Shown here: piece by piece, positions 18,047 through 59,554 of the stretch
Layout: every line of letters begins with the position of its first letter
Numbering within the stretch: position 1 is the stretch's first letter
Position numbers and translations under genes: made by a program
Assembly (NCBI GenBank): GCA_001780285.1
Contig: MFGN01000005.1
Span: 138,200 to 202,199, forward strand
Direction of reading: 5' to 3'
DNA: 64,000 bases
From: Candidatus Falkowbacteria bacterium RIFOXYD12_FULL_34_57
GTDB taxonomy: Bacteria > Patescibacteriota > Patescibacteriia > Patescibacteriales > UBA12075
The notes under the pieces: generated by a model
Database searches by the model: none
Seen by the model: only the letters and a program-made list of their open reading frames with translations
Told to the model about the DNA's origin: nothing

Positions 18047-18070
18047 ATGTTAAAATGTTAAGATGAATTT
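18047..18070 (+). promoter_or_regulatory. ATGTTAAA octamer array with extended -10-like TGTTAAAAT; predicted leaderless start of leuS
   Basis: Octamers atgttaaa|atgttaag|atgaattt. TG (18048-18049), n, TAAAAT (18051-18056), 6 nt, then ATG 18063. Confidence 0.4.
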
Positions 18071-21000
18071 TATGACTAATAAATATAACCATCAAAAAAT
18101 TGAAAAGAAATGGGCGGAAAGATGGGTAAAAGATAAGGTTTTTTCGCCTGATTTAAAAAAATCAGAGAACCCCTATTATGCCTTGTTTATGTTTCCTTAT
18201 CCTAGTGCAGAAGGGCTCCATATCGGCAATTTTTATGCATTTACCTGTGTTGATGTCATGGCTAAATATAAGAAATTACAGGGAATGGACGTGTTTGAAC
18301 CGGTTGGTTTTGATGCTTTTGGAATTCATAGTGAAAATTATGCATTAAAAATAGGGGAAACTCCTCGGAAAATGTTGGATAGGACTATTGTTAATTTTCG
18401 CAAGCAGCTTAGCTCAGCCGGACTTGGCTGTGATTGGACTCGCGAAATAGATACCACCACTCCGGAGTATTACAAGTGGACACAATGGATTTTTACCAAG
18501 CTTTTTGAAAAAGATCTCGCTTATCAAAAAGAAGCTTTGCTTAATTGGTGTTCCGGATGCAAAACAGTATTGGCTGATGAGCAAATTGAGGATGGGGTCT
18601 GCGAACGATGCAAGACTGTTCCGGAAAAAAAAACAATGAAGCAATGGTTTTTCAGAATCACCAAATATGCCGAGAAGCTTTTAAACGGACTTGAGACGAT
18701 GGATTGGTCGGATATCACCAAGTCGGCGCAAAGAAATTGGATTGGCCGCAGCGAAGGAGCGGAAGTAGAGTTTGTTATAAAAAACGAAAGAAATGATATA
18801 AAAAAAATTTATCTTGGAACAGGTAATAAATCAAAAATAGAAAGACTGGAAAAAATTTTTAAATATGTTAATCCGGATATTAAAATTGAACAAGTTCCGG
18901 AAGTGGTTGATGTTCCGGAAGAAAGCGATAATGGACTGGAGAATTCTAAGCAGAAAGTTTTAGCTTATCATGGTAAATATGACTATCCGGTTGTCTCTTG
19001 TGATACTTCTGTATTTTTTGAAGGAGAAGATTTTGATCCGACGCATGTCAAGAGGGTTGCTCTGGGGGGCGAGGATGAATCCGGCTTTAGCCAGAGGGAA
19101 ATTGCGGAAAAAATAAAGGATTTTTATATAGACATTGCCAGGAAATACGGAGGTCGGAAAGAATTTTATTTTGAGGATGCCTGGACAATTCTTTTTCCCA
19201 ATGGTGAAATTAAGCAGTTAAAATATCGCAGAGAATACATTATGACAGATAAATTGCAGGGGGAGCTTGATATTTATTTTCCGATGAGAAGCCTGTATCT
19301 GGTCAAAGCGACAGGCAGAGATATTTTTAATCAGACCGAGGAAGAATGGAAAAAAGAATTTCAGCCCCAGATTGATGCCTTTAGCGGTGTTTTTGGAAAA
19401 AGTAAATTAAAAGTTTTTACCACTAGACCGGATACATTGTTTGGCGCGACTTATTTTGTAATGTCTCCTGAACACCCGTTAGTGAGGGAAATAACCACAA
19501 AAGAACAAAGCGAAAAAATAGAGGATTATATTAAAAAATCTGGAGCGAAGTCTGAATTGGAAAGAACGGAAAACAAGGAAAAAACAGGAGAATTTACCGG
19601 CGCCTATGTTGTAAATCCGGTAAATAACGAAGAAATCCCGGTGTTTGTGGCGGATTATGTAATGATGGGATATGGCACCGGAGCTATAATGGCTGTACCG
19701 GCGCATGATGAACGCGATTTTGAGTTTGCAAAAAAATTTAACATTTCGATTAAAGAAGTGGTCAAACCAAAAAATAGCGGAAAAGATAAAACAATTTTAG
19801 TGCTTCACGGACTTTGCGATGATTCTTCCAAACACTGGTTTCCATGGTTTAAGCAGGAGTTTGGTGGCAGGGGCTACAATGTGATTATTCCGGATATGCC
19901 CAATCCGCATTTGCCTCGCGTAGAAAGATGGATGGATTGCTTAAAAGAATTAAAAGATGATTTAAGCGGGAATTTGACCATTGTTGGTTTTAGCTTGGGA
20001 ACACAAGCGGCGTGCATGTTTATTGATAAATATAATGTTGCAGTAAATAATTTAATTTTAGTGGGGCCAAGTGAAAAAGAGGGAAAGACGATTGAGGAAT
20101 TAGTTGAGGCCGGACTGCCCAGAGAAAGCCTCGAACATAGCGAAAAATTCGGAGAAGAGAGGGTTGATTGGAAAAATGTAAGAAGACTGGTTAAAAACAC
20201 TATTCAATATTTGTCCAGCAATGATCCCTATATTGAAATAGAAACTGAAAAATATTCAGATGTTTTAAATCCGCAAAAAAGAATATTTTTTAATAGGGGG
20301 CATTTTACGGAAAAATTCGGCATAGATAAGATACTGGAATTAATTCCTGATATTGAAGGCTGTACGGTTGGCGATGGCATAGCTGTGAATTCTGGATTCT
20401 TGGACGGTTTAGAAACTTCGACAGCAAAAGAAAAAATGATATCTTGGCTGGAAGGAAAGAAAATTGGCAAAGGAGTAGTGAATTATCGCTTAAGGGATTG
20501 GTGTATATCCAGACAAAGATATTGGGGCCCTCCTGTACCGATTGTGTATTGCGCGAAGTGCGGAGCTTTGGCTGTTTTCGAAAAAGATTTGCCGGTAAGG
20601 CTGCCCGAACTAGAGAAGGGCTGGGAGCCCGTGGGAGACGGAAGGGGGCCCTTGGCCAATGTTGATGATTTTATGAATACAACTTGTCCAAAATGCGGAG
20701 GCGCGGCCAGCCGCGAAGCGGATGTGATGGATAATTTTCTCGATTCGGCTTGGTATTTTTTTAGATATATAGACCCTAAAAATAACAATAAAATTTTTGA
20801 TCAAAAGCTTGGTAAAAAATGGCTTCCAGTTGATTTTTATGTAGGGGGAAATGAGCACGCAGTTCTTCACTTAATGTATACAAGATTTATCACTATGGCG
20901 CTGCACGATATCGATCTGATTGATTTTGATAATCCCTTCAAAAAATTTCGCGCTAACGGCATGATACTTAAAGACGGAAAAAAAATGAGCAAATCCAAAG

Positions 21001-21656
21001 GTAATGTTATTAATCCGGAAGAATATGGGGAAAAGGTGGGCTATGATGCCCTGAAAACATATTTATTATTTTTAGGGCCATTAAATGAAGATCGTTCATT
21101 TACCGATGAGGGTGTGCGCGGAACAAAACGATGGGTGGAGAAAATTGCGCGACTGGAAGAAAAAATTAAAAATAGCCATAAAGACGAAAATGAAATTATA
21201 AACAAATTACATAAAACTATAAAAATGGTAACAGATGACTTTGAAGACCAGAGATATAATACAGCTGTTGCCAGACTCATGGAATTAACTAATGTTTTAA
21301 ATTTAGCAGATAAAATTTCCACTCAAACATGGAAATCCTTTTTGGTTTTAGTATCCCCCTTTGTTCCGTCTATAGCCGAGGAAATGTGGGAAAGACTGGG
21401 AAATAAGAATTCAATTTTTAGCGACAAGCTGTGGCCCGAATATGATGCAAAATTAGCTCATGACGAATTTATTGAGTTGATTGTTCAGGTCAATGGAAAA
21501 TTAAGAGAAAAAATTGAAGTATCTATAGATATCACGGAGGAAGAAGCAAAAAAAATTGCATTAGAAAGTGGAAAAATAAAAAAATGGATAGAAGGAAAAA
21601 AGATTGAAAAAGTGATTTTTGTAAAAGGAAAATTGATAAATATTGTTGTTAAATAA
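18063..21656 (+). CDS. leuS: leucyl-tRNA synthetase with two large inserted domains (1197 aa)
   Basis: Motifs: HIGN (HIGH), RNWIGRSEGAEVEF, TTRPDTLFGATY and GTGAIMAVPAHDERDFEFA (CP1 editing), NYRLRDWCISRQRYWG, KMSKSKGN. About 340 extra residues lie in two blocks (about nt 18783-19403 and 19782-20357). Confidence 0.95.
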   Translation: MNFMTNKYNHQKIEKKWAERWVKDKVFSPDLKKSENPYYALFMFPYPSAEGLHIGNFYAFTCVDVMAKYKKLQGMDVFEPVGFDAFGIHSENYALKIGETPRKMLDRTIVNFRKQLSSAGLGCDWTREIDTTTPEYYKWTQWIFTKLFEKDLAYQKEALLNWCSGCKTVLADEQIEDGVCERCKTVPEKKTMKQWFFRITKYAEKLLNGLETMDWSDITKSAQRNWIGRSEGAEVEFVIKNERNDIKKIYLGTGNKSKIERLEKIFKYVNPDIKIEQVPEVVDVPEESDNGLENSKQKVLAYHGKYDYPVVSCDTSVFFEGEDFDPTHVKRVALGGEDESGFSQREIAEKIKDFYIDIARKYGGRKEFYFEDAWTILFPNGEIKQLKYRREYIMTDKLQGELDIYFPMRSLYLVKATGRDIFNQTEEEWKKEFQPQIDAFSGVFGKSKLKVFTTRPDTLFGATYFVMSPEHPLVREITTKEQSEKIEDYIKKSGAKSELERTENKEKTGEFTGAYVVNPVNNEEIPVFVADYVMMGYGTGAIMAVPAHDERDFEFAKKFNISIKEVVKPKNSGKDKTILVLHGLCDDSSKHWFPWFKQEFGGRGYNVIIPDMPNPHLPRVERWMDCLKELKDDLSGNLTIVGFSLGTQAACMFIDKYNVAVNNLILVGPSEKEGKTIEELVEAGLPRESLEHSEKFGEERVDWKNVRRLVKNTIQYLSSNDPYIEIETEKYSDVLNPQKRIFFNRGHFTEKFGIDKILELIPDIEGCTVGDGIAVNSGFLDGLETSTAKEKMISWLEGKKIGKGVVNYRLRDWCISRQRYWGPPVPIVYCAKCGALAVFEKDLPVRLPELEKGWEPVGDGRGPLANVDDFMNTTCPKCGGAASREADVMDNFLDSAWYFFRYIDPKNNNKIFDQKLGKKWLPVDFYVGGNEHAVLHLMYTRFITMALHDIDLIDFDNPFKKFRANGMILKDGKKMSKSKGNVINPEEYGEKVGYDALKTYLLFLGPLNEDRSFTDEGVRGTKRWVEKIARLEEKIKNSHKDENEIINKLHKTIKMVTDDFEDQRYNTAVARLMELTNVLNLADKISTQTWKSFLVLVSPFVPSIAEEMWERLGNKNSIFSDKLWPEYDAKLAHDEFIELIVQVNGKLREKIEVSIDITEEEAKKIALESGKIKKWIEGKKIEKVIFVKGKLINIVVK

Positions 21657-21671
21657 AATACATGTCATTAT

Positions 21672-21708
21672 GTCATTCTCGCCAGTCTAGCTGAGTCTGG
21701 ACGAATGA
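21672..21708. repeat. GTCATTCT-family element, short degenerate copy
   Basis: gtcattctcgcc...ggacgaatgaag forms an imperfect inverted repeat directly after the leuS stop. Confidence 0.5.
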
Positions 21709-21762
21709 AGGTTGGAATTTGTCGTAGGCTTCTTTATTGAACATGGTTAAACTAATTTTAGC

Positions 21763-21854
21763 GTCATTCTGAACGAAACGCAGTGGAGTGAAGAATCTAA
21801 TGGATGATAGCAAAGCCTAATTTGATAAGATTCTTCGCTTACGCTCTGAATGAC
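21763..21854. repeat. GTCATTCTGA-family palindromic element, copy
   Basis: gtcattctgaacg...gtgaagaatct pairs with agattcttcgcttacgctctgaatgac. Confidence 0.85.
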
Positions 21855-21895
21855 AGGGTGGTACATTTTCGACTTTACAAACTAAACCAAACTAC

Positions 21896-23047
21896 ATGTT
21901 CAAAAAAATTATTCATCAAGATTTATCTGCCGGATTTGTTTCTTTGTTTTCCGGAAGAATGATTCAGCACGCCGGAACCAGTTTAATTGGCTTGTTTTTA
22001 CCCATTTATCTTTTTATCGCCTATGGATACGATATAAAGAAAGTAATCTATTTTTATTTAATTGGACATTTGATTTATGCGGTTCTTTTGCCCTGGGGCG
22101 CTCAGTTTTTAAACAAAATAGGGTTGAGACGCTCTTTGCAGATTAGCATCCCCATTTTAGCCGGCTATTATGTGGCAATTTACTTTATCGTGTCGGATGT
22201 TTTGTTTTTTTCAGTATTGGCTATTTTTGCTATAACCATTGGAAGAATACTTTTTTGGATACCATACCATACCGATATGGCTAAATTTGCCGCTCCAAAT
22301 ACCAGGGGAAGAGGGATAGGTTTAATGTGGGCATCAAAAACATTTTTAAGCGTAATCATGCCGTTGGCTTCCGGATTTATAATCGCCAGATTTGGCTACA
22401 ACCTTGTTTTTGTTTTAGCTATTGTGGTTTATATGGCGTCTATTATTCCCTTTTTGACCATTCCTCATACCCGTGAAAAATATTCTTGGGGCTACATTGA
22501 AACATTTAAACATTTTTTTAAGAAAAAAAATAGAACGTTGATTTTGGCGAATATGGCAAATGGGGCTGAAAATGCCGTGGGTATTATTGTTTGGCCGATA
22601 TTTATCTGGAAATTGCTTGAAGGTGATTATGCTGCTGTGGGCGCTCTTTCTTCTCTGATAGTGGTGGTTACCATTGTTTTACAATTAATGGTTGGTAAAT
22701 ACACGGATATTCTTAATAAAAGAAAGATAATCCATTGGGGCAGTATTTTTTATGCCTTGGGATGGGTGGGAAAGATATTTGTTTTAACTTCTTTTCAAAT
22801 TTTTATTGCCGGAGCATATCATCAGTTCGTACAGATTTTTAAAGATACTCCATTTGACGCCTTGAATTATGAAATTATGGCAGATCATGGGCATTATGTG
22901 GACGAATATACAGTTTTGAAAGAAATAGCAGTACAGCTCGGAAAGGTTTTGATATTACTATTTATACTCCTAATAGCTTTAAACCTCGGTTTAAATTGGA
23001 CTTTTGTCTTAGCGGCTCTCGCCTCCCTGTTTGTTAATTTGCTATAA
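21896..23047 (+). CDS. MFS-type transporter
   Basis: 383 aa, about 11-12 hydrophobic helices, with basic loop motifs (NKIGLRRS, NTRGRGIG) at MFS loop 2-3/8-9-like positions. Confidence 0.7.
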   Translation: MFKKIIHQDLSAGFVSLFSGRMIQHAGTSLIGLFLPIYLFIAYGYDIKKVIYFYLIGHLIYAVLLPWGAQFLNKIGLRRSLQISIPILAGYYVAIYFIVSDVLFFSVLAIFAITIGRILFWIPYHTDMAKFAAPNTRGRGIGLMWASKTFLSVIMPLASGFIIARFGYNLVFVLAIVVYMASIIPFLTIPHTREKYSWGYIETFKHFFKKKNRTLILANMANGAENAVGIIVWPIFIWKLLEGDYAAVGALSSLIVVVTIVLQLMVGKYTDILNKRKIIHWGSIFYALGWVGKIFVLTSFQIFIAGAYHQFVQIFKDTPFDALNYEIMADHGHYVDEYTVLKEIAVQLGKVLILLFILLIALNLGLNWTFVLAALASLFVNLL

Positions 23048-23070
23048 GAATTTTATAATATTGAATATTG

Positions 23071-23101: not shown

Positions 23102-23132
23102 ATTAATATCAACCTTTGATTTTATAAATTTT

Positions 23133-24228: not shown

Positions 24229-24315
24229 GTCATTTTGAGAAGCGAAGCGACGAAGAATCCCGTGAAGTTGGACTTAGCGCGTTTCAATGAGATTCTTCAC
24301 TGCATTCAGAATGAC
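24229..24315. repeat. GTCATTCTGA-family palindromic element, copy
   Basis: gtcattttgagaagcgaagcgacgaagaatc ... gattcttcactgcattcagaatgac. Confidence 0.8.
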
Positions 24316-42355: not shown

Positions 42356-42496
42356 TTATTTTAACATTCAAATATTTTAACATGTTAGCATATATAAATG
42401 CAGGACTTACACATTTGTCTATAAAAACGTAAAATTCTATCAAACGCGTAAGCCCTGAAATGTTTAGTTTGTATAACTAAATACACATCTCTTGTC

Positions 42497-42537
42497 ATGT
42501 TAAAATGCTGAAATGTTAAGGTGTTAACATAAAAATT
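42497..42537 (+). promoter_or_regulatory. ATGTTAAA octamer array with extended -10-like TGTTAAAAT and a 4-codon mini-ORF
   Basis: Octamers atgttaaa|atgctgaa|atgttaag|gtgttaac|ataaaaat. TGTTAAAAT (42498-42506), 6 nt, ATG 42513 (MLRC-stop, TAA 42525-42527). The real ATG at 42538 has no SD. Confidence 0.4.
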
Positions 42538-42990
42538 ATGCAACAATTTACGGTCCCACAATTTATAGATGTTGAAGATAAAATTATTGGTCCGATTACC
42601 ACCAGACAGTTTTTGATTATGCTTGCCGGTTGTATGTTGGTTGCCATTTTGTATAAATTATTAGATTTTACCGCATTTTTAACATTCTCCGTGCTTATTT
42701 TTGCCGTTTTTGGCTCATTGGCATTTTTTAAAATCAATGGCATGGCTATGCATTTTTTTATTCTTAATTTTTTAGAAACATTAAGAAAGGCTCCCAAGCG
42801 CGTATGGGATCACACCAGAAAAAAAGAATGGGGAAAAGAGATTGAAGATGATATAAAAATAGAAATAAAGGAAATCATACCAGTAAAAGAATTCAGCGGT
42901 TCTAGGCTTGGTGAATTATCTTTGATTGTGGATACTAGGGGAATGTATAGGGGGGAAGGAAGGGAAAAGGTAAAAGAGTTGGATTTATAG
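42538..42990 (+). CDS. PrgI/VirB3-like small T4SS membrane protein
   Basis: N-terminus MQQFTVPQFIDVEDKIIGPITTRQFLIML followed by two TM helices, as in PrgI-family proteins encoded upstream of VirB4 in Gram-positive-type T4SS. Confidence 0.6.
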   Translation: MQQFTVPQFIDVEDKIIGPITTRQFLIMLAGCMLVAILYKLLDFTAFLTFSVLIFAVFGSLAFFKINGMAMHFFILNFLETLRKAPKRVWDHTRKKEWGKEIEDDIKIEIKEIIPVKEFSGSRLGELSLIVDTRGMYRGEGREKVKELDL

Positions 42991-43962: not shown

Positions 43963-43970
43963 TAAAAATT

Positions 43971-47557: not shown

Positions 47558-47651
47558 ATTGTTTAGCATATTAGCATGTCAACATTTGGGCATTTTTGCT
47601 TAAATGTTTTTTTATTTAGATATTCTATTTAGATATTTGATAGATATTTGA

Positions 47652-47681
47652 ATGTTTATGTTTATATGTTAAAATATTAAT
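47652..47681 (+). promoter_or_regulatory. ATGTTAAA octamer array with extended -10-like TGTTAAAAT; predicted leaderless start of radA
   Basis: Units atgttt|atgtttat|atgttaaa|atattaat|ATG. TGTTAAAAT (47667-47675), 6 nt, ATG 47682. No SD. Confidence 0.4.
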
Positions 47682-49043
47682 ATGAAGAAAATACAAACAA
47701 TTTATTCTTGTAGTAATTGTGGCGCGCAGTTTTTCAAGTGGAACGGCCGTTGTTTGGAGTGTGGCGGATGGGGGACCCTGAAAGAAGATGTACAAGATGA
47801 GAGAAAAAGAGAAGATAAAAATATCAAGCCCAGCGATTTGGTTAGCTTGGCTGATATTAGTAATAATTTTACTGAGAGCACAGAAGAAAGAATGAAAACA
47901 AATATATCGGAAATTGATCGTGTTTTTGGCGGTGGAATAATTCCCGGATCAATGATCCTCTTATCAGGAGAGCCGGGTATAGGAAAATCTACAATACTTG
48001 CTCAAATTACCGATTTAATTGCACAAAATTATAAAAGTGATACAGGCGTGATATATTGCAGCGGTGAAGAATCAGCCGCGCAGGTTGGAAATAGAATGAA
48101 GCGGCTGGGTTGTATGGGCAAAGGAGTTTTTTTTGTGAACGAGACTAATGCGGAAAAAATAATTTCTACTATTAAAAAACACATCCCCGGAATGGTTATT
48201 ATGGATTCTATCCAGACTATGTATTCTTTGGAGGTGGCGGGCGAACCGGGGGGGATAAATCAAATCAGGGCCTGTACTATGAAATTTCTGGAAGTAGCCA
48301 AGAAAAATGATATCACTATTGTTTTAGTGGGTCATATTACAAAAGACGGAACCGTGGCCGGTCCGAAATTAATGGAACATATGGTAGATGTGGTGGCGTT
48401 GCTGGAAAGCGAGAAATCGCATGATTTTCGCATACTCAGGACCACTAAAAATCGTTTCGGCTCTATCAATGAGGTGGGAATATTTGAGATGACCGGGACA
48501 GGATTTAGGGAAATAAAAAATCCTTCCCAGATTTTTTTAGAGTCAAAGAATAATAATATTTCCGGCTCCGCTGTTTCTTGTATTATGGAAGGTGCCCGGC
48601 CATTTTTAGTGGAAGTTCAGGCTTTGGTTACCAAGACTATATTTGGTTATCCACAAAGAAAAGCCTCCGGTTTTGATTTGAACAGGCTTCAGGTTTTGAC
48701 TGCTGTACTCACTAAGAGAGCGGGGATAAATTTATCTAATCAGGATGTAATACTGAATGTGGTTGGCGGATTAAAAATAAATGATCCCGGACTTGATCTG
48801 GCGGTTTGCATGGCGGTTGCTTCATCTTTTTTCAATAAGCCGATAAAACATAAAACTGTTATTATTGGAGAGGTGGGACTCGGTGGAGAAATTCGTAATA
48901 CTGGTAAAGTAGCGGAAAAGTTAAAAGAAGCCGTAAAGCTCGGTTTTGAAACAGCTATTATTCCGGATATTAAGTTAAACTCAAAAAATATTAATTTAAA
49001 TAATAATAAAAATTTAAGCGATGCGATAAATTTTATTAAGTAA
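47682..49043 (+). CDS. radA: DNA repair protein RadA/Sms
   Basis: N-terminal zinc ribbon CSNCGAQFFKWNGRCLECGGW, Walker A GEPGIGKST, a KNRFG motif, and a Lon-like C-terminal domain. Confidence 0.95.
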   Translation: MKKIQTIYSCSNCGAQFFKWNGRCLECGGWGTLKEDVQDERKREDKNIKPSDLVSLADISNNFTESTEERMKTNISEIDRVFGGGIIPGSMILLSGEPGIGKSTILAQITDLIAQNYKSDTGVIYCSGEESAAQVGNRMKRLGCMGKGVFFVNETNAEKIISTIKKHIPGMVIMDSIQTMYSLEVAGEPGGINQIRACTMKFLEVAKKNDITIVLVGHITKDGTVAGPKLMEHMVDVVALLESEKSHDFRILRTTKNRFGSINEVGIFEMTGTGFREIKNPSQIFLESKNNNISGSAVSCIMEGARPFLVEVQALVTKTIFGYPQRKASGFDLNRLQVLTAVLTKRAGINLSNQDVILNVVGGLKINDPGLDLAVCMAVASSFFNKPIKHKTVIIGEVGLGGEIRNTGKVAEKLKEAVKLGFETAIIPDIKLNSKNINLNNNKNLSDAINFIK

Positions 49044-49942: not shown

Positions 49943-50064
49943 TTAAAGCCTCCTTATATTATGGTTTTTTAAAACTTATATTTGTTTTTATATTATTATT
50001 AAAAATTTATTTTGTCAATGTTATTTTATGTTATTTAACATAATAACATATTTTTATAAATTTG

Positions 50065-50625
50065 TCAATTATATTTTCTTATGCTAATATCAGCTAAAAA
50101 TTGTTCTTTTTTTTCTTCGAATTTTTTAATAATTTGTTTAGCAGCTTCTTCTGTGGTTTTTCTAAATAATTGTGGATTATTTTTCATATTGATTCCTTCT
50201 TCGGGAACATGAATGATAACATCAGCTTTGTGTTCGATTTTTGTAGGATTCATAGTGATATCCAGAGTAATCCTGTGTACTTTGCCATTGTCGTTAATTT
50301 CCATAAAAGCATCAATTCCATGTTTTTTATCCAAAGTGCTGCCGCAAGCTGTATAAAATTTTATATTTTCCGTACCGTCTAATTCATCCGGGTGTAGGAG
50401 ATAATCTACGGTATCTGTCAGTCCTTCTGCAAACTGAGGAAGTTTTGTTGGTTGATTTTCTTTGACTTGCGCTATTGCCAGATGATATGGTAGATGTTCC
50501 TGATGTTTTTCAGTGCATTCTCCGATTAGTTTGCCTTCGCATATTTTGCCTTCGCTGGGTTTTTCTTGGCGTTCGCTTATTTTTTGTTGATGAAATTTTC
50601 GCATAGCTACTTCTGGGCTTCTCAT
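50065..50625 (-). CDS. hypothetical protein (186 aa)
   Basis: ORF only, immediately downstream of recG on the same strand. No motif recognised. Confidence 0.55.
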   Translation of the reverse strand: MRSPEVAMRKFHQQKISERQEKPSEGKICEGKLIGECTEKHQEHLPYHLAIAQVKENQPTKLPQFAEGLTDTVDYLLHPDELDGTENIKFYTACGSTLDKKHGIDAFMEINDNGKVHRITLDITMNPTKIEHKADVIIHVPEEGINMKNNPQLFRKTTEEAAKQIIKKFEEKKEQFLADISIRKYN

Positions 50626-53864: not shown

Positions 53865-53868
53865 GGTT

Positions 53869-55641
53869 TTAAATATTAAATCCTTTTTTTATAAGTCGTT
53901 CTTTTTCTGCTGCCATAGCTTTGTAAACTGCTTCTTTCATAGCATGAAAAAATTCAGTTGTGTTGAAGTGGGGGATGATAGCATCTTTTCCCCAAAGATC
54001 TTCAAAACAGCGACCAGGAAGATCGTCATCTTCTTCCCTGAATCCGAGGCGTTCATCGATATCTCTCATTATGAAATATACGGCAAGCGCTGAATCCAAA
54101 AGATCCCTGGGCTTGATATTTTCGTCGTACACCCAATTATAGATAGCGGCGATTTGTTCCAATTTGGCTTTAGCAAATTTACAAAGACAGATCATGTCAT
54201 AGAGAAGGATTTTTGGTCCCCTCATGTTGTTTCCCGCCCATTCTTCCGCGGTATCGGAGTAATCATCATTGTAAGCTGCCTTATAAGTATCATGGGAGGT
54301 GTGCGGACCGGCGATAGCAAAAGCATATCCGGGATTATAGTTTCCGAGATATGCAGCTAGTTCCAGACCTTTGACATGCATGGCATAATGCTGTCGGAAG
54401 CCGTTCTTTTTTACATATCGGAAGAGCCCTTCCGATAATTCATGCGCGCCGCTGCAGATTGCCAAAGCAAGCTTGCGGGCGAATTTGAAATTGCCTAATT
54501 TTTCCTGTCTTTCCATTTCATATCCGAGGCATACCCCCAGTGAGATGGTGTCGACACCGAAATAGTCACCGATGCGGATCAGTGTCATGCGTTGGCGCAT
54601 GTCGTAAATTCCCAGATTCGCTCCCAGTAGTTTACCAGGTTCAAAATCAATTTTGCCCAGATTCTCATTATTATTTTCTATGTCCAATACTTCTTTCCAA
54701 CAACGAATCGTGCATCCCAAGCAACCTTTATTTTTTATTTTTAGACCAATTTTTTCTAGGTCTTCCAGATAGATATCATTCTTTCCGGCGGGGGATGAAA
54801 AATTATTTTCTATACACGCTCGAAAGGCATCAAAGGTTGGTGTATTAGCAAAATATGTTCCCCAGTTACGGTATTTATCGCTGGCTGGATTGGTGCTGAT
54901 CCATTTATTTATTTCCGCGGCAATATCCTTGGGAAAAAGCTTTTTTTCTTTGTTGTTTGAGACAACAATAGCCAATAGGTTCTTAGAACCCATGACAGCA
55001 CCCAAGCCGCCACGGCCGGCATAACGCATATGATGCGTACCGTTTTTGGCTTGGTCATATGTACCGACTGCAATATTGGCGATTCGGCTCTTCTTTTCTC
55101 CTCCGGGGCCGATTACGGCGCAAGCGGAATTTGCGTGTATTTCTGTGAGTTTTTTAGATTTTTCATGAGTCATAAGACCCTGTAAACCTTCAGCATGATT
55201 AAAGGCGACTGAAATACTTCCTCCTATTCTTTTGATTAATAGATAAATCGGTTCGTCGCTTTTTCCGGTAATAACAATAGAATCAATATCCTGACTGCGC
55301 ATAGCAGGGGAAAGAAGTCCGCTCACAGCGGAAAAATATATGCCATTTGTACCATTTTTACTGGTTTTGAGGGGACTTATGGAAGTAAATATTGTTCTGG
55401 CGCCGCCGACAATATTTCTTCCCGAAAGTAGTCCGATATCCAAACAAAGCGGATTATCCGGACTTAAGGCGTTTTTGCCGATTTTCGGATGTTCCTTTAG
55501 ATATTCACGCATAAAAGGCACTGATTGGCCTATTCCGCCAAGTTTTTCCACAAAAGACAATGCTGATACCGGTATAGTTTCCAGATGCCACCTTAGGTCA
55601 TTTAAACTAATAAATAGCCTGTTTAAATAATTTTTGAACAT
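53869..55641 (-). CDS. aor: aldehyde:ferredoxin oxidoreductase family (tungstopterin) enzyme
   Basis: AOR N-domain pattern (KLGGIG..., SPLKT), the 4Fe-4S ligand motif GCLGCTIRC (CxxCxxxC) and a distal ICLCKF cysteine. 590 aa. Confidence 0.8.
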   Translation of the reverse strand: MFKNYLNRLFISLNDLRWHLETIPVSALSFVEKLGGIGQSVPFMREYLKEHPKIGKNALSPDNPLCLDIGLLSGRNIVGGARTIFTSISPLKTSKNGTNGIYFSAVSGLLSPAMRSQDIDSIVITGKSDEPIYLLIKRIGGSISVAFNHAEGLQGLMTHEKSKKLTEIHANSACAVIGPGGEKKSRIANIAVGTYDQAKNGTHHMRYAGRGGLGAVMGSKNLLAIVVSNNKEKKLFPKDIAAEINKWISTNPASDKYRNWGTYFANTPTFDAFRACIENNFSSPAGKNDIYLEDLEKIGLKIKNKGCLGCTIRCWKEVLDIENNNENLGKIDFEPGKLLGANLGIYDMRQRMTLIRIGDYFGVDTISLGVCLGYEMERQEKLGNFKFARKLALAICSGAHELSEGLFRYVKKNGFRQHYAMHVKGLELAAYLGNYNPGYAFAIAGPHTSHDTYKAAYNDDYSDTAEEWAGNNMRGPKILLYDMICLCKFAKAKLEQIAAIYNWVYDENIKPRDLLDSALAVYFIMRDIDERLGFREEDDDLPGRCFEDLWGKDAIIPHFNTTEFFHAMKEAVYKAMAAEKERLIKKGFNI

Positions 55642-55824
55642 TAATTACCTCCGTTTGTATTTTATTAAAAACAACTTTATTATTAAAGTACAAAATCTTA
55701 TAATTATAACAAATAATTATGGATATGTCAAGTTGTTTTAAAAATAAAAAATAGGCCCAGACACAGAGATGAAAATGTATAGATATAGTGCTTTAGTTGC
55801 CTACTTTTTTCTTATTTTTTAGGA

Positions 55825-56214
55825 TTATCGCCATTTTTTAATATATTGACCTATGCCGAATTCGTTTAGTTTATTTTTTAATTTTGTTTTTGTATGTAAA
55901 TACAGGATAGTTGATCGAAAATCTATTAAATAACGGTTTTTTATTATTTTGTAAGCTATTTTTTCGGTTTGAATTGCCCTTCTTATGGTTTTGGTGGTAA
56001 CTCCGCCAAATTTGGCTGCCTCTGAAACAGATATCCATAGCGGATTAGAAACATTTTTTAATAAAATATTTTTGTAATCATCTATTTTGTTTCTTCTCGG
56101 TTCTTTTTGTATAAACGGAGTGGATGCCGCTTGTTTGGGAACGTTAAAAACGCTTTCGTTTGGCAGCATAGGAGTATTGAAAATATTTATTTTTTTTTGA
56201 TTTTGGTCATCCAT
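55825..56214 (-). CDS. helix-turn-helix (excisionase/MerR-like) DNA-binding protein
   Basis: WISVSEAAKFGGVTTKTIRRAIQTEKIAYKII matches the excisionase-family HTH pattern. 129 aa. Confidence 0.6.
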   Translation of the reverse strand: MDDQNQKKINIFNTPMLPNESVFNVPKQAASTPFIQKEPRRNKIDDYKNILLKNVSNPLWISVSEAAKFGGVTTKTIRRAIQTEKIAYKIIKNRYLIDFRSTILYLHTKTKLKNKLNEFGIGQYIKKWR

Positions 56215-56235
56215 TTTACTATATTCTTAACTTTT

Positions 56236-56319
56236 AAGTCTAGAAAATTGTAGACTTAAAATAGAAAAATGCTTAATATAAAATAAAAAACAATTTTTAG
56301 TCTAGGATAAAGTAGACTA
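56236..56319. promoter_or_regulatory. two 7-8-7 inverted-repeat operator-like sites upstream of the HTH gene
   Basis: aagtcta-gaaaattg-tagactt (56236-56257) and tagtcta-ggataaag-tagacta (56298-56319). Same half-site and same 8-nt spacer, 62 nt apart. Confidence 0.5.
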
Positions 56320-56666
56320 AAAAATACAAAATTTGATATTTTTAATAAATAATTTTGTTTAATTTTTATATTATTTAGTGTAAAGTCCAACATGGTATGG
56401 ACTTAAGTATCTACATCTTGGCATAATGGAGAAAAAAAAACAAGAGGGGTAATGCAAAGTATTGCTAGTTAAAAGTTTGAAAGTTAAAATTCTAAAATTC
56501 CACACCTCTAAGCGACACAAGCCTATACACCTGATCTAAAAATTTATAAGTTATATACATTTTAATTTTTCTATTTTTAGACTTCCGGCTTTAAAGAGAA
56601 GGATGATATGTTGAGATATTGCCTTGTTTTTTTTAGAGATACATGTTAGTCTTTAAGATAGTAATG

Positions 56667-56720
56667 GATCTGTCGCAAAATCCAAAAAATTTGACTCGCA
56701 ACAGGATTTGGCGACAGACC
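56667..56720. repeat. CTGTCGC-family palindromic element, copy 2 (shorter)
   Basis: tctgtcgcaaaatcc-aaaaaatttgactcgcaac-aggatttggcgacaga shares the loop and the right arm with 17881-17972. Confidence 0.8.
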
Positions 56721-56873
56721 TATAATATAATAATGTATTAATTACTCTTGCAAAAATGGAATCCCGCAAGCTTAATTTTAATTTAATATAAGCAATTTTT
56801 TGCTATTTTAAAGCTAGGACTATTAAAAAGGTCTGATTTTTTGGTTTGAGGGGGTAAAATTTATATTATATTT

Positions 56874-56966
56874 TTCATCCCGGTTTCATTTGTTTATTCC
56901 CGCGAAGGCGGGAATCTATGAAGGTTAACGCCAAAAACATTTAATTTTTGATTTTGTGGGAATGAC
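56874..56966. repeat. GTCATTCC-type palindromic element with attcccgcgaaggcgggaat hairpin
   Basis: Inner perfect 8-bp hairpin attcccgc-gaag-gcgggaat (56897-56916). Outer tcatccc ... gggaatga complementarity. Confidence 0.6.
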
Positions 56967-57008
56967 AAGTATGGGTGTAACAAATTCAGAAGATTTTCGT
57001 ATAATTAT

Positions 57009-57569
57009 ATGAGTAGTAAAATTAATGATAAAACTTTATATTTTAGAATGAAACAGAAGGATAAAGAAGCTTTTATTTCCGCATATGACTCTTATTTGAA
57101 TGATATATATCGATTTATATATTTCAAGGTTGGAAATAGAGAAGAAGCAGAGGATTTGACCTCGTCGGTTTTTTTAAAAACCTGGAACTATATTCAGGAC
57201 AATAATTTAAAAAGTTATAAGACCTTAAAAGCTTTGTTGTACCGAATCGCCAGAAATGCGGTTATAGATCATTATCGACAAAAAAGCAAAAGACAGGATA
57301 TTAGCTATGATGCGGAACTTGGATTTGATGTAGAGGATGAAAAACAGGATAATCTGCAAAAAATGGAAATGATTGATAGTTATCAAGAGATTGAGGAGCA
57401 CATGAAAGAATTAAAAGACGAGTATCGCGAAATTATTGTTTTAAAATATATAAATGAATTATCTATCTCTGAAATTGCGGAAGTTCTGGATAAGAAAAAG
57501 GGAAATGTTCGGGTGTTGATTCATAGAGCAGAAACCGCATTGAAAGAGATAGTGAAAAAAAATAATTAA
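57009..57569 (+). CDS. ECF-type RNA polymerase sigma-70 family factor
   Basis: Region 2 (YRFIYFKVGNREEAEDLTSSVFLKTW, RIARNAVIDHYRQK) and region 4 HTH (LSISEIAEVLDKKKGNVRVLIHRAETALKE). Confidence 0.9.
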   Translation: MSSKINDKTLYFRMKQKDKEAFISAYDSYLNDIYRFIYFKVGNREEAEDLTSSVFLKTWNYIQDNNLKSYKTLKALLYRIARNAVIDHYRQKSKRQDISYDAELGFDVEDEKQDNLQKMEMIDSYQEIEEHMKELKDEYREIIVLKYINELSISEIAEVLDKKKGNVRVLIHRAETALKEIVKKNN

Positions 57570-57580
57570 TTCCTTTTATT

Positions 57581-57660
57581 TCATCCTGAACTTGATTCAG
57601 GATCCACCACACAATAAGTGATCAAAATGGCATGGATTCTGAATCAAGTTTAGAATGACA
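57581..57660. repeat. GTCATTCTGA-family palindromic element, degenerate copy closely related to copy 1
   Basis: tcatcctgaacttgattcaggatcc ... ggattctgaatcaagtttagaatgaca. Confidence 0.8.
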
Positions 57661-57687
57661 CGATAAAGAAATTTTAGATTAAATTTC

Positions 57688-58665
57688 ATGGAAAAAGAAT
57701 TACTCTCACAATTAAATAAATTAAAAAACATCAAACCCGATACAGCGTGGAAAAATCGTAATCGAGAGATTTTACTTAGTCAGATTTCTTCCAGCACGGT
57801 AGATAAGATTGGGTTTTTTGATATTTTTGCGCAAAAATTGTCATTACTCAGATATGTATCTCAACCGGTAATGGCGGTTTTTTTGATTGCGGGGGTTTTG
57901 CTTGGCGGGGGATTTTTCAGTTTGAATGCCGCCAAGGATACCAAGCCCGGAGATTCACTGTATATTGCCAAGATTATCAGTGAAAAAACCCAATTCGCTT
58001 TAACATTTAACGAAAAGAAAAAAGTAAAATTAGGCATAGAGTTTGCCGGAAACAGGGCCAAAGAGATTACCCAGGTATTATCAGAAGAGGGGGATGTGGA
58101 AATAAGAGTGGAAAAACTGAAGGATAATTTTAAAAAAGAAATAGCCGGGGTGAAAACAAGATTAGAAAATATAAATAATAATAAAATTGCCGCTAATACT
58201 AATATAAAAACGGAGGAAGAAGAAAATATGGAGACAAGTCAAGACGCGTCTCCGGAGGAAGAGGGGGAAATGGTTTTTAGCGCCGGTTTGGGAAAAGAAG
58301 AAAAAGGAATACAGGTTTCAGAAAACAACACCAAAGAAAAACCGATTTTAGAAACTACAGATGAGGGATTGCTAGCGGAAGAAAATATTAATTCAGACGA
58401 ACCAGAAAAGGCCGATCAGCCAGGGGTTGAAAATCCTAATAGCGACACAGGGTCTAGCAGTGAAGATGTGGCAGGCACAGAAAATAAAAACCCACAAACG
58501 ATTTTGGAAAAAGTAGAAGAGTTGTTGGATAATGATAATTATGACGAAACAATGAGCAGGCTGGCGGAGATAGGGGAAATGATTGATCAGGTAAACAGCG
58601 GAGAGGTAAAAGGGGAATATGACTCTGTGATAGATGGTGATTCAGCTACTTCAACAGTTAATTAA
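57688..58665 (+). CDS. membrane protein downstream of the ECF sigma gene (possible anti-sigma/DUF5667-like)
   Basis: Single TM (PVMAVFLIAGVLLGGGFF) after a cytoplasmic N-region of about 60 aa. The KPGDSLYIAKIISEKTQFALTF...AGNRAKEI segment resembles DUF5667. Acidic low-complexity tail. Confidence 0.6.
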   Translation: MEKELLSQLNKLKNIKPDTAWKNRNREILLSQISSSTVDKIGFFDIFAQKLSLLRYVSQPVMAVFLIAGVLLGGGFFSLNAAKDTKPGDSLYIAKIISEKTQFALTFNEKKKVKLGIEFAGNRAKEITQVLSEEGDVEIRVEKLKDNFKKEIAGVKTRLENINNNKIAANTNIKTEEEENMETSQDASPEEEGEMVFSAGLGKEEKGIQVSENNTKEKPILETTDEGLLAEENINSDEPEKADQPGVENPNSDTGSSSEDVAGTENKNPQTILEKVEELLDNDNYDETMSRLAEIGEMIDQVNSGEVKGEYDSVIDGDSATSTVN

Positions 58666-59043
58666 TGAATATTGTTTTTTGAAAATATAAAAAGTAATAA
58701 TTTAAAAATAAAATTTTTATATTTTAATTGTTGTTTTTAGCTTTCAGCTTTTATTTTTTAGATTTTTAGTGCCGATTTAATGGTTTTATATCTGTTATAA
58801 GGTCAATAAATCCGCATTAACTTCTTAAAGGAATTTTGCAGATTCCTTTAAAAATGTTGTGGAGCGGATAAAATGGAGTTAGAAAGGTCGATTTTCGATC
58901 AAGGGACTAAGGTGGTCTCTCGAAAAACTCTATTAGTTTATTAATAAAAAATAAAAGATTCTTTAAAAAAATCTCCGCCGATTTAAATTAAATCGCAGAT
59001 CATTATGCGTTTAATATTTTAAATACAAAGCATTTATTTTTAA

Positions 59044-59078
59044 GTGCTAAAATGTTTAAATGTTAAAATGTTGATATG
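59044..59078 (+). promoter_or_regulatory. tandem extended -10-like elements in an ATGTTAAA octamer array; predicted TSS of a long leader for the S-layer-like gene
   Basis: Octamers gtgctaaa|atgtttaa|atgttaaa|atgttgat|atgagtct. TGCTAAAAT (59045-59053) and TGTTAAAAT (59061-59069), each followed after 6 nt by an ATG (59060, 59076). Confidence 0.4.
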
Positions 59079-59554
59079 AGTCTGCGGGTTAATAAACCAA
59101 CTAAGCTTTTCCCTGCCCCGGTTTGTGCGTTTTAGCGCTTACCGGGAAGATAAGTCAATTGAGACTCGCTTGTCAACAAGAGATTTAATATTGTTTTTAT
59201 CAGGGTTAGTGTCAGAATGTTGAATATATTATTTCTTATATTCACCACCCCTTCGGGGGACTGCGTTAGCTAAGATATTAAAACTTTATTAAGCTTGGGC
59301 AATATGTGTATTATGTTTGATATATTTTTATCGCCCAACTTGTCGTTTTGATTTGCTTGTCTGCACAAACCGGTGCAGGCGAAGCGGGATTCCGGTTGAT
59401 TTGTTAACAGGTTTGGTTTAATGAGGGTTTTAAAAACAGTTTTTGTAACCGTCAGAGGATTATTTAAACTTACGATTTTTATAAAGAATTTTAAACGCTG
59501 TATAAATGACTTGTGCTTTAGGGCCCAAGCTTTTATCGGCAAAACGATTAAATT

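What the first reader, a model, noticed from the sequence alone, without database searches (positions are those of the whole stretch)
18047..59083. Phased ATGTTAAA octamer arrays with an extended -10-like TGTTAAAAT abut four start sites and predict leaderless leuS and radA mRNAs
At four loci the DNA just upstream of a start is a run of 8-nt units beginning ATG. These are 18047 atgttaaa|atgttaag|ATGaattt (leuS) and 47658 atgtttat|atgttaaa|atattaat|ATGaagaa (radA). The other two are 42497 atgttaaa|atgctgaa|atgttaag|gtgttaac|ataaaaat (before the prgI-like gene) and 59044 gtgctaaa|atgtttaa|atgttaaa|atgttgat|atgagtct. Each contains TG-n-TAAAAT followed after exactly 6 nt by an ATG. That is the spacing expected between a -10 hexamer and the transcription start. 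For leuS and radA this ATG is the start of the long ORF and no Shine-Dalgarno is present, so the mRNAs would be leaderless. At the other two loci the ATG opens mini-ORFs: MLRC-stop at 42513, MLKC-stop at 59060, and 17 codons at 59076. Other genes here, such as the hisG-like and purC-like genes, have strong SDs, so two initiation modes coexist.
Basis: seen in the sequence. Interest (0 to 1): 0.58.

Follow-up and report, generated by a model that had tools for sequence, protein, structure and literature searches.

The report
Reiterated promoter cores; probable leaderless genes
In this uncultured Falkowbacteria (candidate phyla radiation) genome, a strong promoter motif, TGTTAAAAT, is repeated every 8 bases just upstream of several genes; at radA and leuS it lies exactly where it should if their messenger RNAs began at the start codon, a known but here untested way of starting translation without a ribosome-binding site.

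Summary
In intergenic DNA, same-strand RTGYT cores lie 8 nt apart 13 times, against 0.3 expected. TGTTAWAAT is intergenic in 10 of 11 cases.

The window comes from Candidatus Falkowbacteria RIFOXYB2_FULL_34_18. TGTTAAAAT reads as an extended -10 promoter core.

The leaderless reading of radA and leuS is supported, not proven:
- The nearest RadA relative (81% identity) keeps TGATAAAAT-N6-ATG although the spacer has diverged.
- Relatives show a sharp peak at exactly 6 nt, and 11 of 12 such ATGs open genes.
- Another 9 kb of the same genome holds two more such genes, without arrays.

Other parts of the interpretation fail:
- The phased ATGs and mini-ORFs follow arithmetically from repeating TGnTAAAA every 8 nt. 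The ORF at 59076 (19 codons, not 17) overlaps a conserved structured RNA and is not conserved.
- Lack of an SD is uninformative, since only 5 of 46 genes have one.
- The arrays are not conserved in the closest relative.

No transcription starts are mapped. Verdict: a known kind of system (leaderless promoters) in a new lineage, with an unusual octamer reiteration. Moderate interest.

The parts
18047..18062 (+). Two-unit array ATGTTAAA|ATGTTAAG upstream of leuS. Extended -10 TGTTAAAAT at 18048-18056 is 6 nt from ATG 18063. A second, weaker extended -10-like TGTTAAGAT at 18056-18064 is 7 nt from the in-frame ATG 18072.
   Evidence: The geometry is read from the sequence.
18063..21656 (+). leuS, 1197 aa with Ser_hydrolase and Ham1-like insertions. 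There are two in-frame candidate starts, 18063 (MNFMTNKYNH) and 18072 (MTNKYNH).
   Evidence: Pfam. Homologue N-termini (MEKYNH, MSEKYNH, MEEKYNH) fit 18072 better.
42497..42536 (+). Four- to five-unit array upstream of the PrgI-family gene. TGTTAAAAT at 42498-42506 predicts a start at A42513. TGTTAACAT at 42522-42530 is 7 nt from the gene's ATG at 42538.
   Evidence: PrgI Pfam hit.
42356..42391 (-). Complementary-orientation array (ATGCTAAC ATGTTAAA ATATTTGA ATGTTAAA on the minus strand) with two TGTTAAAAT (42374-42382 and 42358-42366). It lies just after the stop of the 517-aa gene and forms an inverted repeat with 42497-42532.
   Evidence: Inverted repeat of 36 nt, 72% complementary. The two arms pair in the predicted fold, z = -3.3.
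47658..47681 (+). Array ATGTTTAT|ATGTTAAA|ATATTAAT abutting radA. Extended -10 TGTTAAAAT at 47667-47675 is 6 nt from ATG 47682. A -35-like TTGAAT lies at 47648-47653 with a 16-nt spacer.
47682..49043 (+). radA. The start is unambiguous: MKKIQTIYSCSNCG, with a stop codon in frame just upstream.
47562..47608 (.). Minus-strand array (ATGCCCAA ATGTTGAC ATGCTAAT ATGCTAAA, 47562-47593). It overlaps the left arm of the terminator-like hairpin of the upstream DsbA-like gene (47581-47608, followed by a T run).
   Evidence: In the predicted fold the left array pairs with the right array around the terminator hairpin, z = -4.9.
59044..59075 (+). Four-unit array with two extended -10 cores, TGCTAAAAT (59045-59053) and TGTTAAAAT (59061-59069). 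They predict starts at A59060 and A59076.
59087..59405 (+). Conserved structured RNA element in the leader of the 1222-aa surface-protein gene (59555-63223). It begins 11 nt after the predicted start at 59076. The closing helix is AAAYCAAC/GTTGATTT, followed by a covarying long helix and the invariant AGCGGGATTCCGGTTGATTTG.
   Evidence: No Rfam match.
50034..50068 (-). Near-consensus promoter TTGACA-17-TGTTATTAT. Its -10 region is a two-unit array, ATGTTATT|ATGTTAAA.
14821..14829 (+). Solitary TGTTAAAAT in the intergenic region, 120 nt upstream of the MBL-fold gene at 14950.

Best explanation
The octamers are reiterated copies of an extended -10 promoter core for the housekeeping sigma factor. 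The core is R-TG-n-TAAAAT: the 'TGn' or '-16 region' motif followed by a -10 hexamer.

At radA the core lies 6 nt from the ATG. At leuS it lies 6 nt from ATG 18063, and a second core lies 7 nt from the in-frame ATG 18072. Transcription would therefore begin on the A of the start codon, giving a leaderless mRNA, or a leader of at most 9 nt for leuS. At the PrgI-like gene and at the 59-kb locus the same cores act as tandem promoters. At 59 kb they drive a roughly 480-nt structured leader of a conserved surface-protein gene.

The 8-nt phasing arises because 8 nt is the register at which TGnTAAAA overlaps itself. Each repeat unit then rebuilds a full 9-nt core and places an ATG 6 nt after the previous one. 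The arrays probably grew by the short tandem duplication that is common in intergenic DNA of this clade. The internal ATGs and mini-ORFs are by-products.

Shown here: motif statistics, geometry, conservation of the geometry, and repeat prevalence. Inferred: promoter activity, transcription start positions, leaderless translation, and a duplication origin for the arrays.
For: Motif statistics:
- 10 of 11 TGTTAWAAT in the window are intergenic, against 1.46 expected.
- In an independent 9.25 kb of the same genome, all 5 TGnTAWAAT are intergenic.
- Spacings of 8 and 16 nt are about 40-fold and 20-fold above shuffles.
- The array at 50034 (minus) is the -10 of a TTGACA-17-TGnTATTAT promoter.

radA needs its own promoter. 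A 12-bp hairpin plus T run lies at 47581-47608, leaving only 73 nt before the ATG.

Conservation of the geometry:
- The 81%-identical RadA locus L004 has a diverged spacer but keeps TGATAAAAT-N6-ATG.
- Among 237 first-in-operon-like genes of relatives, the gap from TGnTAnAAT to ATG peaks at exactly 6 nt: 8 cases, with none at 5 or 7.
- 11 of 12 TGnTAnAAT-N6-ATG in relatives open long ORFs.
- Two more genes of the same genome show the pattern without any array: L181:4834 and L181:3476 (minus). The second has TTGTCA at 17 nt.

recG orthologues give independent support. Nine of 26 have a -10 or extended -10 at N6, and in three the ATG directly abuts the 3' end of tRNA-Arg. This implies that leaderless or near-leaderless recG mRNAs are tolerated in the clade.

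The predicted start at 59076 lies 11 nt before a conserved covarying RNA element that precedes orthologues of the 1222-aa gene.

Repeats of 7-8 nt are the dominant tandem-repeat periods in Patescibacteria loci (36 and 17 arrays in 819 kb) and are nearly absent in control loci (2 and 0 in 334 kb).

A -10 box 6-8 nt from the start codon is the accepted in-silico signature of leaderless transcription (PMC6028130, read).
Against: - No transcription start, RNA or ribosome data exist for this organism.
- LeuS homologue N-termini favour ATG 18072 over 18063.
- The leuS arrangement is not conserved. In L075 and L076 leuS follows the upstream gene by 6 nt, and in L073 the spacer is unrelated.
- The arrays themselves are absent from the 81% relative, so the reiteration is evolutionarily labile and may have no function.
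- Most genes here are translated without an SD from ordinary leaders, so a leadered radA or leuS mRNA from another start would still be translatable.
- A weaker TATATT lies at 18019 upstream of leuS.
- The minus-strand arrays carry equally good TGTTAAAAT motifs that point antisense into the upstream genes. Their pairing with the plus-strand arrays is not explained by a promoter model.
- Three contigs of the population show no copy-number variation, so there is no direct evidence of ongoing slippage in this genome.
Confidence: 0.55

Rival explanations
1. The arrays are neutral products of a lineage-specific tendency to make 7-8-nt tandem repeats in AT-rich spacers. Their promoter-like look is incidental or only partly functional. 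leuS and radA are expressed from ordinary leadered transcripts and translated by the SD-independent mode used by most genes here.
For: - Period-7 and period-8 tandem repeats with many different units are common in the window and in relatives.
- Locus L073 holds perfect octamer arrays even inside coding sequence.
- The arrays are not conserved in the closest relative.
- 41 of 46 genes lack an SD.
- An alternative -10-like TATATT lies at 18019.
Against: - The same unit recurs at seven or more separate places and matches the extended -10 consensus at its critical positions (TG, T-12, A-11, T-7).
- TGnTAWAAT is almost exclusively intergenic.
- The N6 geometry at gene starts recurs without arrays in the same genome and in relatives.
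- A terminator-like hairpin upstream of radA leaves little room for another promoter.
Confidence: 0.2
2. The arrays are arms of a structured intergenic module. The left array, in complementary orientation, pairs with the right array in read-through RNA or as a DNA cruciform. This would terminate, insulate or direct processing of the upstream transcript. A leaderless 5' end, if present, would then come from RNA cleavage rather than from initiation.
For: - The inverted array pairs at 42356-42391/42497-42532 and 47562-47578/47657-47673 form long-range helices in the minimum-free-energy folds, with z = -3.3 and -4.9.
- L073 has several inverted pairs of octamer arrays just after genes: TTAACGAG/TTAACTCG, ATTGTTAA/AACAATTT.
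- In some relatives the recG ATG abuts a tRNA 3' end, so 5' ends made by processing exist in the clade.
Against: - Only two of the four loci have an inverted partner.
- The helices are AT-rich and 72-79% complementary.
- The z-scores largely restate that the arms share one unit.
- This model does not explain why the unit equals the extended -10 consensus, nor the array-free N6 cases.
- L004 keeps the terminator hairpin but not the arrays.
Confidence: 0.12
3. The octamers are direct-repeat binding sites (TGTTAA every 8 bp, on both strands) for a DNA-binding regulator or nucleoid protein that controls these genes.
For: - The units are reiterated, intergenic, present in both orientations and shared by several loci.
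- The window encodes TrmB-family, HU, response-regulator and ECF sigma proteins.
Against: - A spacing of 8 bp puts successive sites on different faces of the helix, unlike known direct-repeat operators (10-11 bp) or iterons (own knowledge).
- The genes share no functional theme: leuS, radA, a PrgI-like gene and a surface protein.
- The arrays are not conserved in the nearest relative.
- No cognate factor can be named.
Confidence: 0.08
4. The phased ATGs are functional. Transcripts starting at successive A residues carry a 5'-terminal AUG that recruits 70S ribosomes. These are either mini-ORF decoys (MLKC, MLRC, MLR) or 5'-uAUG enhancers, and they tune translation of the downstream gene.
For: - 5'-terminal AUGs on leadered mRNAs affect expression in E. 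coli (PMC4965119; abstract seen).
- Every predicted start in the arrays is the A of an ATG.
- The MLR-stop ORF overlaps the leuS ATG as ATGA.
Against: - An ATG at every unit is an arithmetic consequence of repeating TGnTAAAA, so it needs no selection.
- In relatives only 1 of 12 N6-ATGs is a short ORF, and that one also lies inside an array.
- The 19-codon ORF at 59076 is not conserved and overlaps a structured RNA.
Confidence: 0.05

Closest known systems
Leaderless transcription units of Actinobacteria and Deinococcus (GeneMarkS-2 'group C'; Mycobacterium tuberculosis, Deinococcus deserti)
   Same: A -10 (Pribnow) box lies 6-8 nt upstream of an ATG start codon of first-in-operon genes. There is no SD. 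These genes coexist with leadered genes (PMC6028130; PMC3898074, listed).
   Different: - The lineage here is an AT-rich candidate-phyla-radiation bacterium.
- The box is an extended -10 (TGn).
- Only a minority of transcription units show it: 2-4 in 64 kb, plus 2 in another 9 kb.
- The other genes mostly lack an SD as well.
- No transcription start mapping exists.
Extended -10 / '-16 region' (TRTGn) promoters of Gram-positive bacteria and E. coli
   Same: TG lies one base upstream of a TAnAAT hexamer, usually preceded by a purine, and often without a good -35. Cited from own knowledge: Voskuil and Chambliss 1998; Mitchell et al. 2003.
   Different: Here the core is reiterated head to tail every 8 nt, and in two regions it is mirrored on the other strand. 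I know of no described case of this.
Tandem promoters and long 5' leaders of surface-layer protein genes (Brevibacillus cwp operon, Lactobacillus slpA)
   Same: Several closely spaced promoters are followed by a long structured leader upstream of a very large secreted surface protein, as at the 59-kb locus. Cited from own knowledge.
   Different: - The spacing here is 16 nt, inside an octamer array.
- The leader contains a conserved Patescibacteria-specific RNA element with no Rfam family.
- The protein has no Pfam domain, and an S-layer role is only a guess.
Simple-sequence-repeat contingency loci in promoters (Haemophilus, Neisseria, Mycoplasma)
   Same: Short tandem repeats lie within or next to promoter elements.
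   Different: - The units here are degenerate rather than perfect.
- No copy-number variation is seen among three population contigs.
- Adding or removing a unit would not change the spacing from the last -10 to the ATG, so it would not switch expression.
5'-terminal uAUGs on leadered E. coli mRNAs (PMC4965119)
   Same: An AUG at the predicted 5' end of a transcript whose main ORF starts further downstream, as at loci 42513 and 59060/59076.
   Different: Here the AUG is explained by the repeat arithmetic. No expression data exist.

Membership tests
Extended -10 (TGn) sigma-70-type promoter | TG at -15/-14, one base upstream of a -10 hexamer with A at -11 and T at -7 | tested here: met
   TGTTAAAAT or TGCTAAAAT is present in every array.
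Extended -10 (TGn) sigma-70-type promoter | Located in intergenic DNA upstream of, and co-oriented with, transcription units | tested here: met
   10 of 11 TGTTAWAAT are intergenic, against 1.46 expected. In a further 9 kb of the same genome, 5 of 5 are intergenic. Exception: the two minus-strand copies at 42358 and 42374 point antisense.
Extended -10 (TGn) sigma-70-type promoter | Transcription initiates 6-8 nt downstream of the hexamer | not testable with these tools
   Needs dRNA-seq, 5' RACE or in-vitro transcription.
Leaderless mRNA gene | -10 box 6-8 nt upstream of the start codon, seen as a localised peak across genes | tested here: met
   - radA: N6.
- leuS: N6 to ATG 18063 and N7 to ATG 18072.
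- Relatives: peak at exactly 6 nt (8 cases, none at 5 or 7).
- 11 of 12 N6-ATGs in relatives open genes.
- Two further genes in L181.
Leaderless mRNA gene | AUG start codon that is the first possible start of the ORF | tested here: inconclusive
   Met for radA: an in-frame stop lies just upstream and the N-terminus is conserved. Ambiguous for leuS: there are two in-frame ATGs and homologues fit the second.
Leaderless mRNA gene | The gene has its own promoter, meaning it is first in its operon with termination upstream | tested here: met
   The scan finds a terminator-like hairpin plus T run at 47581-47608 before radA. Before leuS, hairpin 17976-18006 followed by TTTATTTTC is seen by eye and in the fold but is not flagged by the scan.
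Leaderless mRNA gene | The mapped 5' end of the mRNA coincides with the A of the AUG, and translation starts from it | not testable with these tools
   No transcriptome or ribosome profiling is available for this uncultured organism.
Phase-variable simple-sequence-repeat locus | Copy number of the unit varies among closely related genomes | tested here: not met
   L001-L003, three assemblies of the population, are identical across the radA and PrgI arrays. The sample is small.
Upstream ORF / leader peptide | The peptide or ORF is conserved in orthologous leaders | tested here: not met
   Relatives have no ATG at the position of the 59076 ORF, and that region is a covarying RNA helix. The four-codon ORFs are repeat-derived.
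Direct-repeat operator / iteron array | Repeat spacing in phase with the DNA helix (about 10-11 or 21-22 bp) | tested here: not met
   The spacing is 8 bp.
Replication origin (DnaA-box cluster) | GC-skew inversion and DnaA boxes near dnaA/dnaN | tested here: not met
   Cumulative GC skew rises monotonically across the window. The arrays lie at four or more dispersed loci. TGTTAAAAT matches the reverse DnaA box at only 7 of 9 positions.

The most novel reading that the evidence does not exclude
Patescibacteria may have a lineage-specific intergenic architecture built from 7-8-nt tandem repeats. In this genome, octamer arrays that are themselves extended -10 cores are paired with complementary arrays at the end of the upstream gene. 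One module would then both close off or process the upstream transcript, through the long-range helix, and launch a leaderless mRNA for the downstream gene. The clade-wide excess of heptamer and octamer repeats, including perfect octamer arrays inside genes in L073, would reflect a dedicated repeat-generating mechanism rather than ordinary slippage.
Probability: 0.12. Interest if true: 0.65.

Novelty: new variant of a known kind. Interest (0 to 1): 0.4.

Why it matters
Candidate-phyla-radiation bacteria are uncultured, have reduced ribosomes, and in this genome almost never use Shine-Dalgarno sequences. How they start transcription and translation is essentially unstudied.

The -10-at-6-nt signature is sharp and conserved. 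It appears at radA, leuS, recG orthologues and two further genes of this genome. Some recG orthologues start directly at a tRNA 3' end. Together these indicate that leaderless initiation is a working mode in this lineage.

This matters in three practical ways:
- It would improve start-codon calling in Patescibacteria assemblies.
- It gives concrete coordinates to test in existing aquifer metatranscriptomes.
- It flags the reiterated octamers and the excess of 7-8-nt repeats as an unexplained feature of their intergenic DNA.

It does not reveal a new mechanism.

Tried and rejected
- **Known RNA at 59 kb.** Rfam at gathering threshold on the whole window and at E <= 10 on 58950-59600 gave nothing meaningful. 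ARAGORN found no tRNA or tmRNA in the window.
- **Mobile element (MITE).** The intergenic regions at the four loci share only the octamers. Their blastn hits in the fetched loci are short, weak matches (E from 4e-4 to about 1), the best being to the L016 array.
- **Replication origin or DnaA boxes.** There is no GC-skew inversion.
- **LexA/SOS box.** This was considered because radA and recG are repair genes. AACAT/ATGTT half-sites exist, but not in Cheo-box spacing or orientation, and leuS and the surface-protein gene do not fit. It was rejected on sequence inspection only.
- **Conservation of the leuS arrangement.** The nearest usable relatives either fuse leuS to the upstream CNNM gene or have an unrelated spacer, so this test was uninformative.
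- **Conserved promoter upstream of the RNA element in relatives.** The 50-nt contexts show no consistent -10, so the start at 59076 rests on the motif alone.
- **Homology between the 517-aa protein and the 521-aa protein downstream of the L016 array.** None was found.
- **Copy-number variation of the arrays among population contigs.** None was found.
- **Literature on leaderless mRNAs or promoter maps in CPR/Patescibacteria.** Nothing specific was found in the held library.

Full report
**Source and setting.** RadA and LeuS of the window are identical to proteins of Candidatus Falkowbacteria bacterium RIFOXYB2_FULL_34_18 / RIFOXYC2_FULL_34_220. This is a candidate-phyla-radiation (Patescibacteria) genome from an aquifer; the contig is MFGO01000008.1. 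The window is 29-41% G+C. By my ORF-based gene map, 12.5% of it is intergenic, at 27% G+C.

**The observation.**
- In intergenic DNA, same-strand [AG]TG[CT]T cores are spaced 8 nt apart 13 times and 16 nt apart 6 times. Dinucleotide-preserving shuffles give 0.30 +/- 0.55 and 0.27 (maximum 3 in 500). Other spacings are at background, and coding DNA shows no peak.
- TGTTA[AT]AAT occurs 11 times, 10 of them intergenic, against 1.46 expected.
- Small correction: the ORF at 59076 has 19 codons, not 17.

- Arrays of the same unit lie on the minus strand at 42356-42391 and 47562-47593, in the same two spacers as the plus-strand arrays.
- Another lies at 50034-50057 (minus), where it forms the -10 region of a near-consensus TTGACA-17-TGTTATTAT promoter.

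**What the unit is.** The conserved positions of the octamer are R, T, G and then T-A. With the first two bases of the next unit, this reads R-TG-n-TAAAAT. That is a -10 hexamer (A at -11, T at -7) preceded by the TGn '-16 region' motif. Other promoters in the window use the same core as TGTTATAAT with ordinary leaders: 25997, 36875, and 55703 on the minus strand with a perfect TTGACA. The intergenic bias repeats in 9.25 kb of the same genome outside the window, where all 5 TGnTAWAAT are intergenic.

**Why 8 nt, and why the ATGs.** The 9-nt core TGnTAAAAT overlaps itself at a shift of 8, because its last T is the first T of the next copy. A head-to-tail run of TGnTAAAA therefore rebuilds the full core in each unit. 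It also creates ATG (A and T of the hexamer plus G of the next TG) every 8 nt, and so places an ATG exactly 6 nt after every hexamer. This means 'TGnTAAAAT, 6 nt, ATG' is not independent evidence inside an array. Of six such cases in the window, four are internal to arrays and open ORFs of 3-19 codons. In relatives, where arrays are rare, 11 of 12 such ATGs open long ORFs. The internal ATGs and mini-ORFs are best read as by-products.

**Leaderless reading of radA and leuS.** 'No SD' carries no weight here. Only 5 of 46 genes have an SD-like motif: hisG-like, purC-like, a Ham1 gene, an aldehyde:ferredoxin oxidoreductase and one unknown. The other genes have an A/T-rich context with T at -1 in 33 of 46, including genes inside operons. 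The geometry is what counts, and it is supported by comparison.
1. radA is preceded by a terminator-like hairpin with a T run (47581-47608). Its promoter must therefore lie in the last 73 nt, where TGTTAAAAT, with TTGAAT at a 16-nt spacer, is the only good candidate.
2. The closest RadA relative (81% identity, L004) has a diverged spacer but keeps the terminator hairpin and TGATAAAAT-atttat-ATG, again 6 nt.
3. Across 237 first-in-operon-like genes in about 50 related loci, the gap between TGnTAnAAT and the ATG peaks at exactly 6 nt: 8 cases, with none at 5 or 7.
4. Two further genes of the same genome, outside the window and without arrays, have TGATATAAT-N6-ATG and TTGTCA-17-TGATAAAAT-N6-ATG.
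5. Of 26 recG orthologues, eight have an extended -10 and one a -10-like hexamer at N6. Ten lie 0-16 nt from the 3' end of tRNA-Arg(GCG), three of them at 0 nt. In those three, tRNA processing would leave a leaderless mRNA.

A Pribnow box 6-8 nt from the start codon is the recognised in-silico signature of leaderless transcription (PMC6028130).

Caveats for leuS:
- Homologues begin M-x-(x)-KYNH, which fits the second in-frame ATG (18072) better than 18063. The second unit, TGTTAAGAT, lies 7 nt from that ATG, so either start could be leaderless.
- More distant relatives either fuse leuS to the upstream gene or have an unrelated spacer.
- There are no transcription start data.

**The other two loci.** At the PrgI-family gene, TGTTAAAAT predicts a start at 42513. 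This gives a 25-nt leader with the usual SD-less context. A weaker TGTTAACAT lies 7 nt from the gene's ATG at 42538.

At 59 kb, two cores 16 nt apart predict starts at 59060 and 59076. No gene starts there. Instead, 11 nt downstream begins a conserved RNA element (59087-59405).
- Its closing helix is AAAYCAAC/GTTGATTT.
- A long helix follows whose sequence differs between genomes but stays complementary.
- It ends in the invariant AGCGGGATTCCGGTTGATTTG.

The element is found in the roughly 460-600-nt spacer between an ECF sigma/DUF5667 gene pair and orthologues of the 1222-aa secreted protein. The 18-nt core CGGGATTCCGGTTGATTT occurs in 80 listed metagenome loci. In 47 of the 68 with enough downstream sequence, the orthologue starts a median of 129 nt after the core. 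The 19-codon ORF overlaps this helix and has no ATG in relatives, so it is not a gene. Rfam has no family for the element.

**Context: short tandem repeats.**
- The window's spacers hold many other 7-11-nt tandem repeats, such as TTTTAGT, CTCGTAA, AGTTATG and TTTTAGA.
- In 819 kb of Patescibacteria loci, periods 7 and 8 dominate (36 and 17 arrays). In 334 kb of non-Patescibacteria loci they are nearly absent (2 and 0).
- Locus L073 has octamer arrays of many different units, often as inverted pairs just after genes, and perfect octamer arrays inside genes.
- L016 has a six-unit ATGTTTAA-type array that contains TGCTAAAAT and runs into a 521-aa ORF.

The ATGTTAAA arrays are therefore one instance of a clade-wide habit. 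Here it acts on a unit that happens to regenerate a promoter core. The arrays are not conserved in the 81% relative. They do not vary among three population contigs.

**Unexplained.** The minus-strand arrays carry TGTTAAAAT motifs as good as those on the plus strand, pointing antisense into the upstream genes. If the spacers are folded as read-through RNA, the left array pairs with the right array around the internal hairpins (z = -3.3 and -4.9). This could mean an RNA or DNA structural role, antisense promoters, or merely an inverted duplication. I cannot decide among these. The leuS spacer also has a minus-strand TTTACA-16-TATAAT.

**Verdict.**
- The promoter reading and the leaderless reading of radA (and probably leuS) are the best available explanation, with overall confidence about 0.55.
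- The mini-ORF and 'two modes' parts are not supported.
- The system is a known kind (extended -10 promoters and leaderless genes) in a lineage where it has not been described, with an unusual octamer reiteration.

Noticed in passing
window 59087-59405; also L081-L084 and about 23 of the loci L085-L164: Candidate new structured RNA in the leader of a conserved, roughly 1220-aa Patescibacteria surface-protein gene.
- The closing helix is AAAYCAAC/GTTGATTT.
- A long helix with many compensatory changes follows. One flanking pair of the closing helix is G-C in 9 sequences and A-U in 7.
- It also has a small GGGAUUCC hairpin and a variable insert. The minimal form in L092 is 57 nt.
- Rfam has no family for it.
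- The synteny is ECF sigma, DUF5667, a 460-890-nt gap, then the large protein.
   Followed up: partly
L025, L026, L029 (gap 0); L046, L047, L048, L041, L019, L014, L027 (gap 3-16); 20 of 26 recG loci overall: tRNA-Arg(GCG) lies immediately upstream of recG in most related Patescibacteria. In three genomes the recG ATG directly follows the tRNA 3' end. tRNA processing would then produce a leaderless mRNA, resembling mitochondrial 'tRNA punctuation'.
   Followed up: partly
L073 (for example 1334-1405, 3824-3877, 8470-8538, 11152-11191, 14367-14437); Patescibacteria loci generally: There is a clade-wide excess of 7- and 8-nt tandem repeats. L073 has inverted pairs of octamer arrays after genes. 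It also has perfect octamer arrays inside coding sequence: (AAAAACAC)x5 in leuS and (TGTTTTCG)x6.8 in a POR gene.
   Followed up: partly
window 17880-17973: A 95-nt, GC-rich, near-perfect hairpin (arms of 32 nt, 84% complementary) lies between the CNNM-family gene and leuS. The spacer fold has z = -8. A smaller terminator-like hairpin follows at 17976-18006.
   Followed up: no
window about 2620-2700 (minus), 21830-21870, 24270-24310, 57620-57660: A repeated inverted-repeat element of the type GATTCTGAATCAAGTTCAGAATGACA lies upstream of four genes (1832 minus, 21896, 24338, 57688). It could be a REP-like element, a terminator or an operator.
   Followed up: no
window 47610-47651: Two sets of direct repeats (TATTTAGATATTC x2, period 13; TAGATATTTGA x2, period 11) overlap the -35 region of the radA promoter. 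They might be a regulator binding site.
   Followed up: no
window 18063-21656: LeuS is 1197 aa and carries an alpha/beta serine-hydrolase domain and a weak Ham1-like segment. Relatives carry hydrolase, NUDIX or other inserts at the same places.
   Followed up: no
window 3005, 4987, 5867, 12726, 53869 (minus): Only five genes have strong SD sequences: hisG-like, SAICAR-synthetase-like, a Ham1 gene, an unknown gene, and an aldehyde:ferredoxin oxidoreductase. Most are metabolic, which may point to acquisition from SD-using donors. All other genes show A/T-rich upstream sequence, with T at -1 in 33 of 46.
   Followed up: partly
window 18016-18043 (minus strand): A near-consensus TTTACA-16-TATAAT (11 of 12 matches) lies on the minus strand inside the leuS spacer. 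It points back toward the large hairpin and the upstream gene.
   Followed up: no
window 63568-63645: A perfect 21-nt tandem repeat (3.7 copies, 100% identity) lies inside the ORF at 63467-63820.
   Followed up: no
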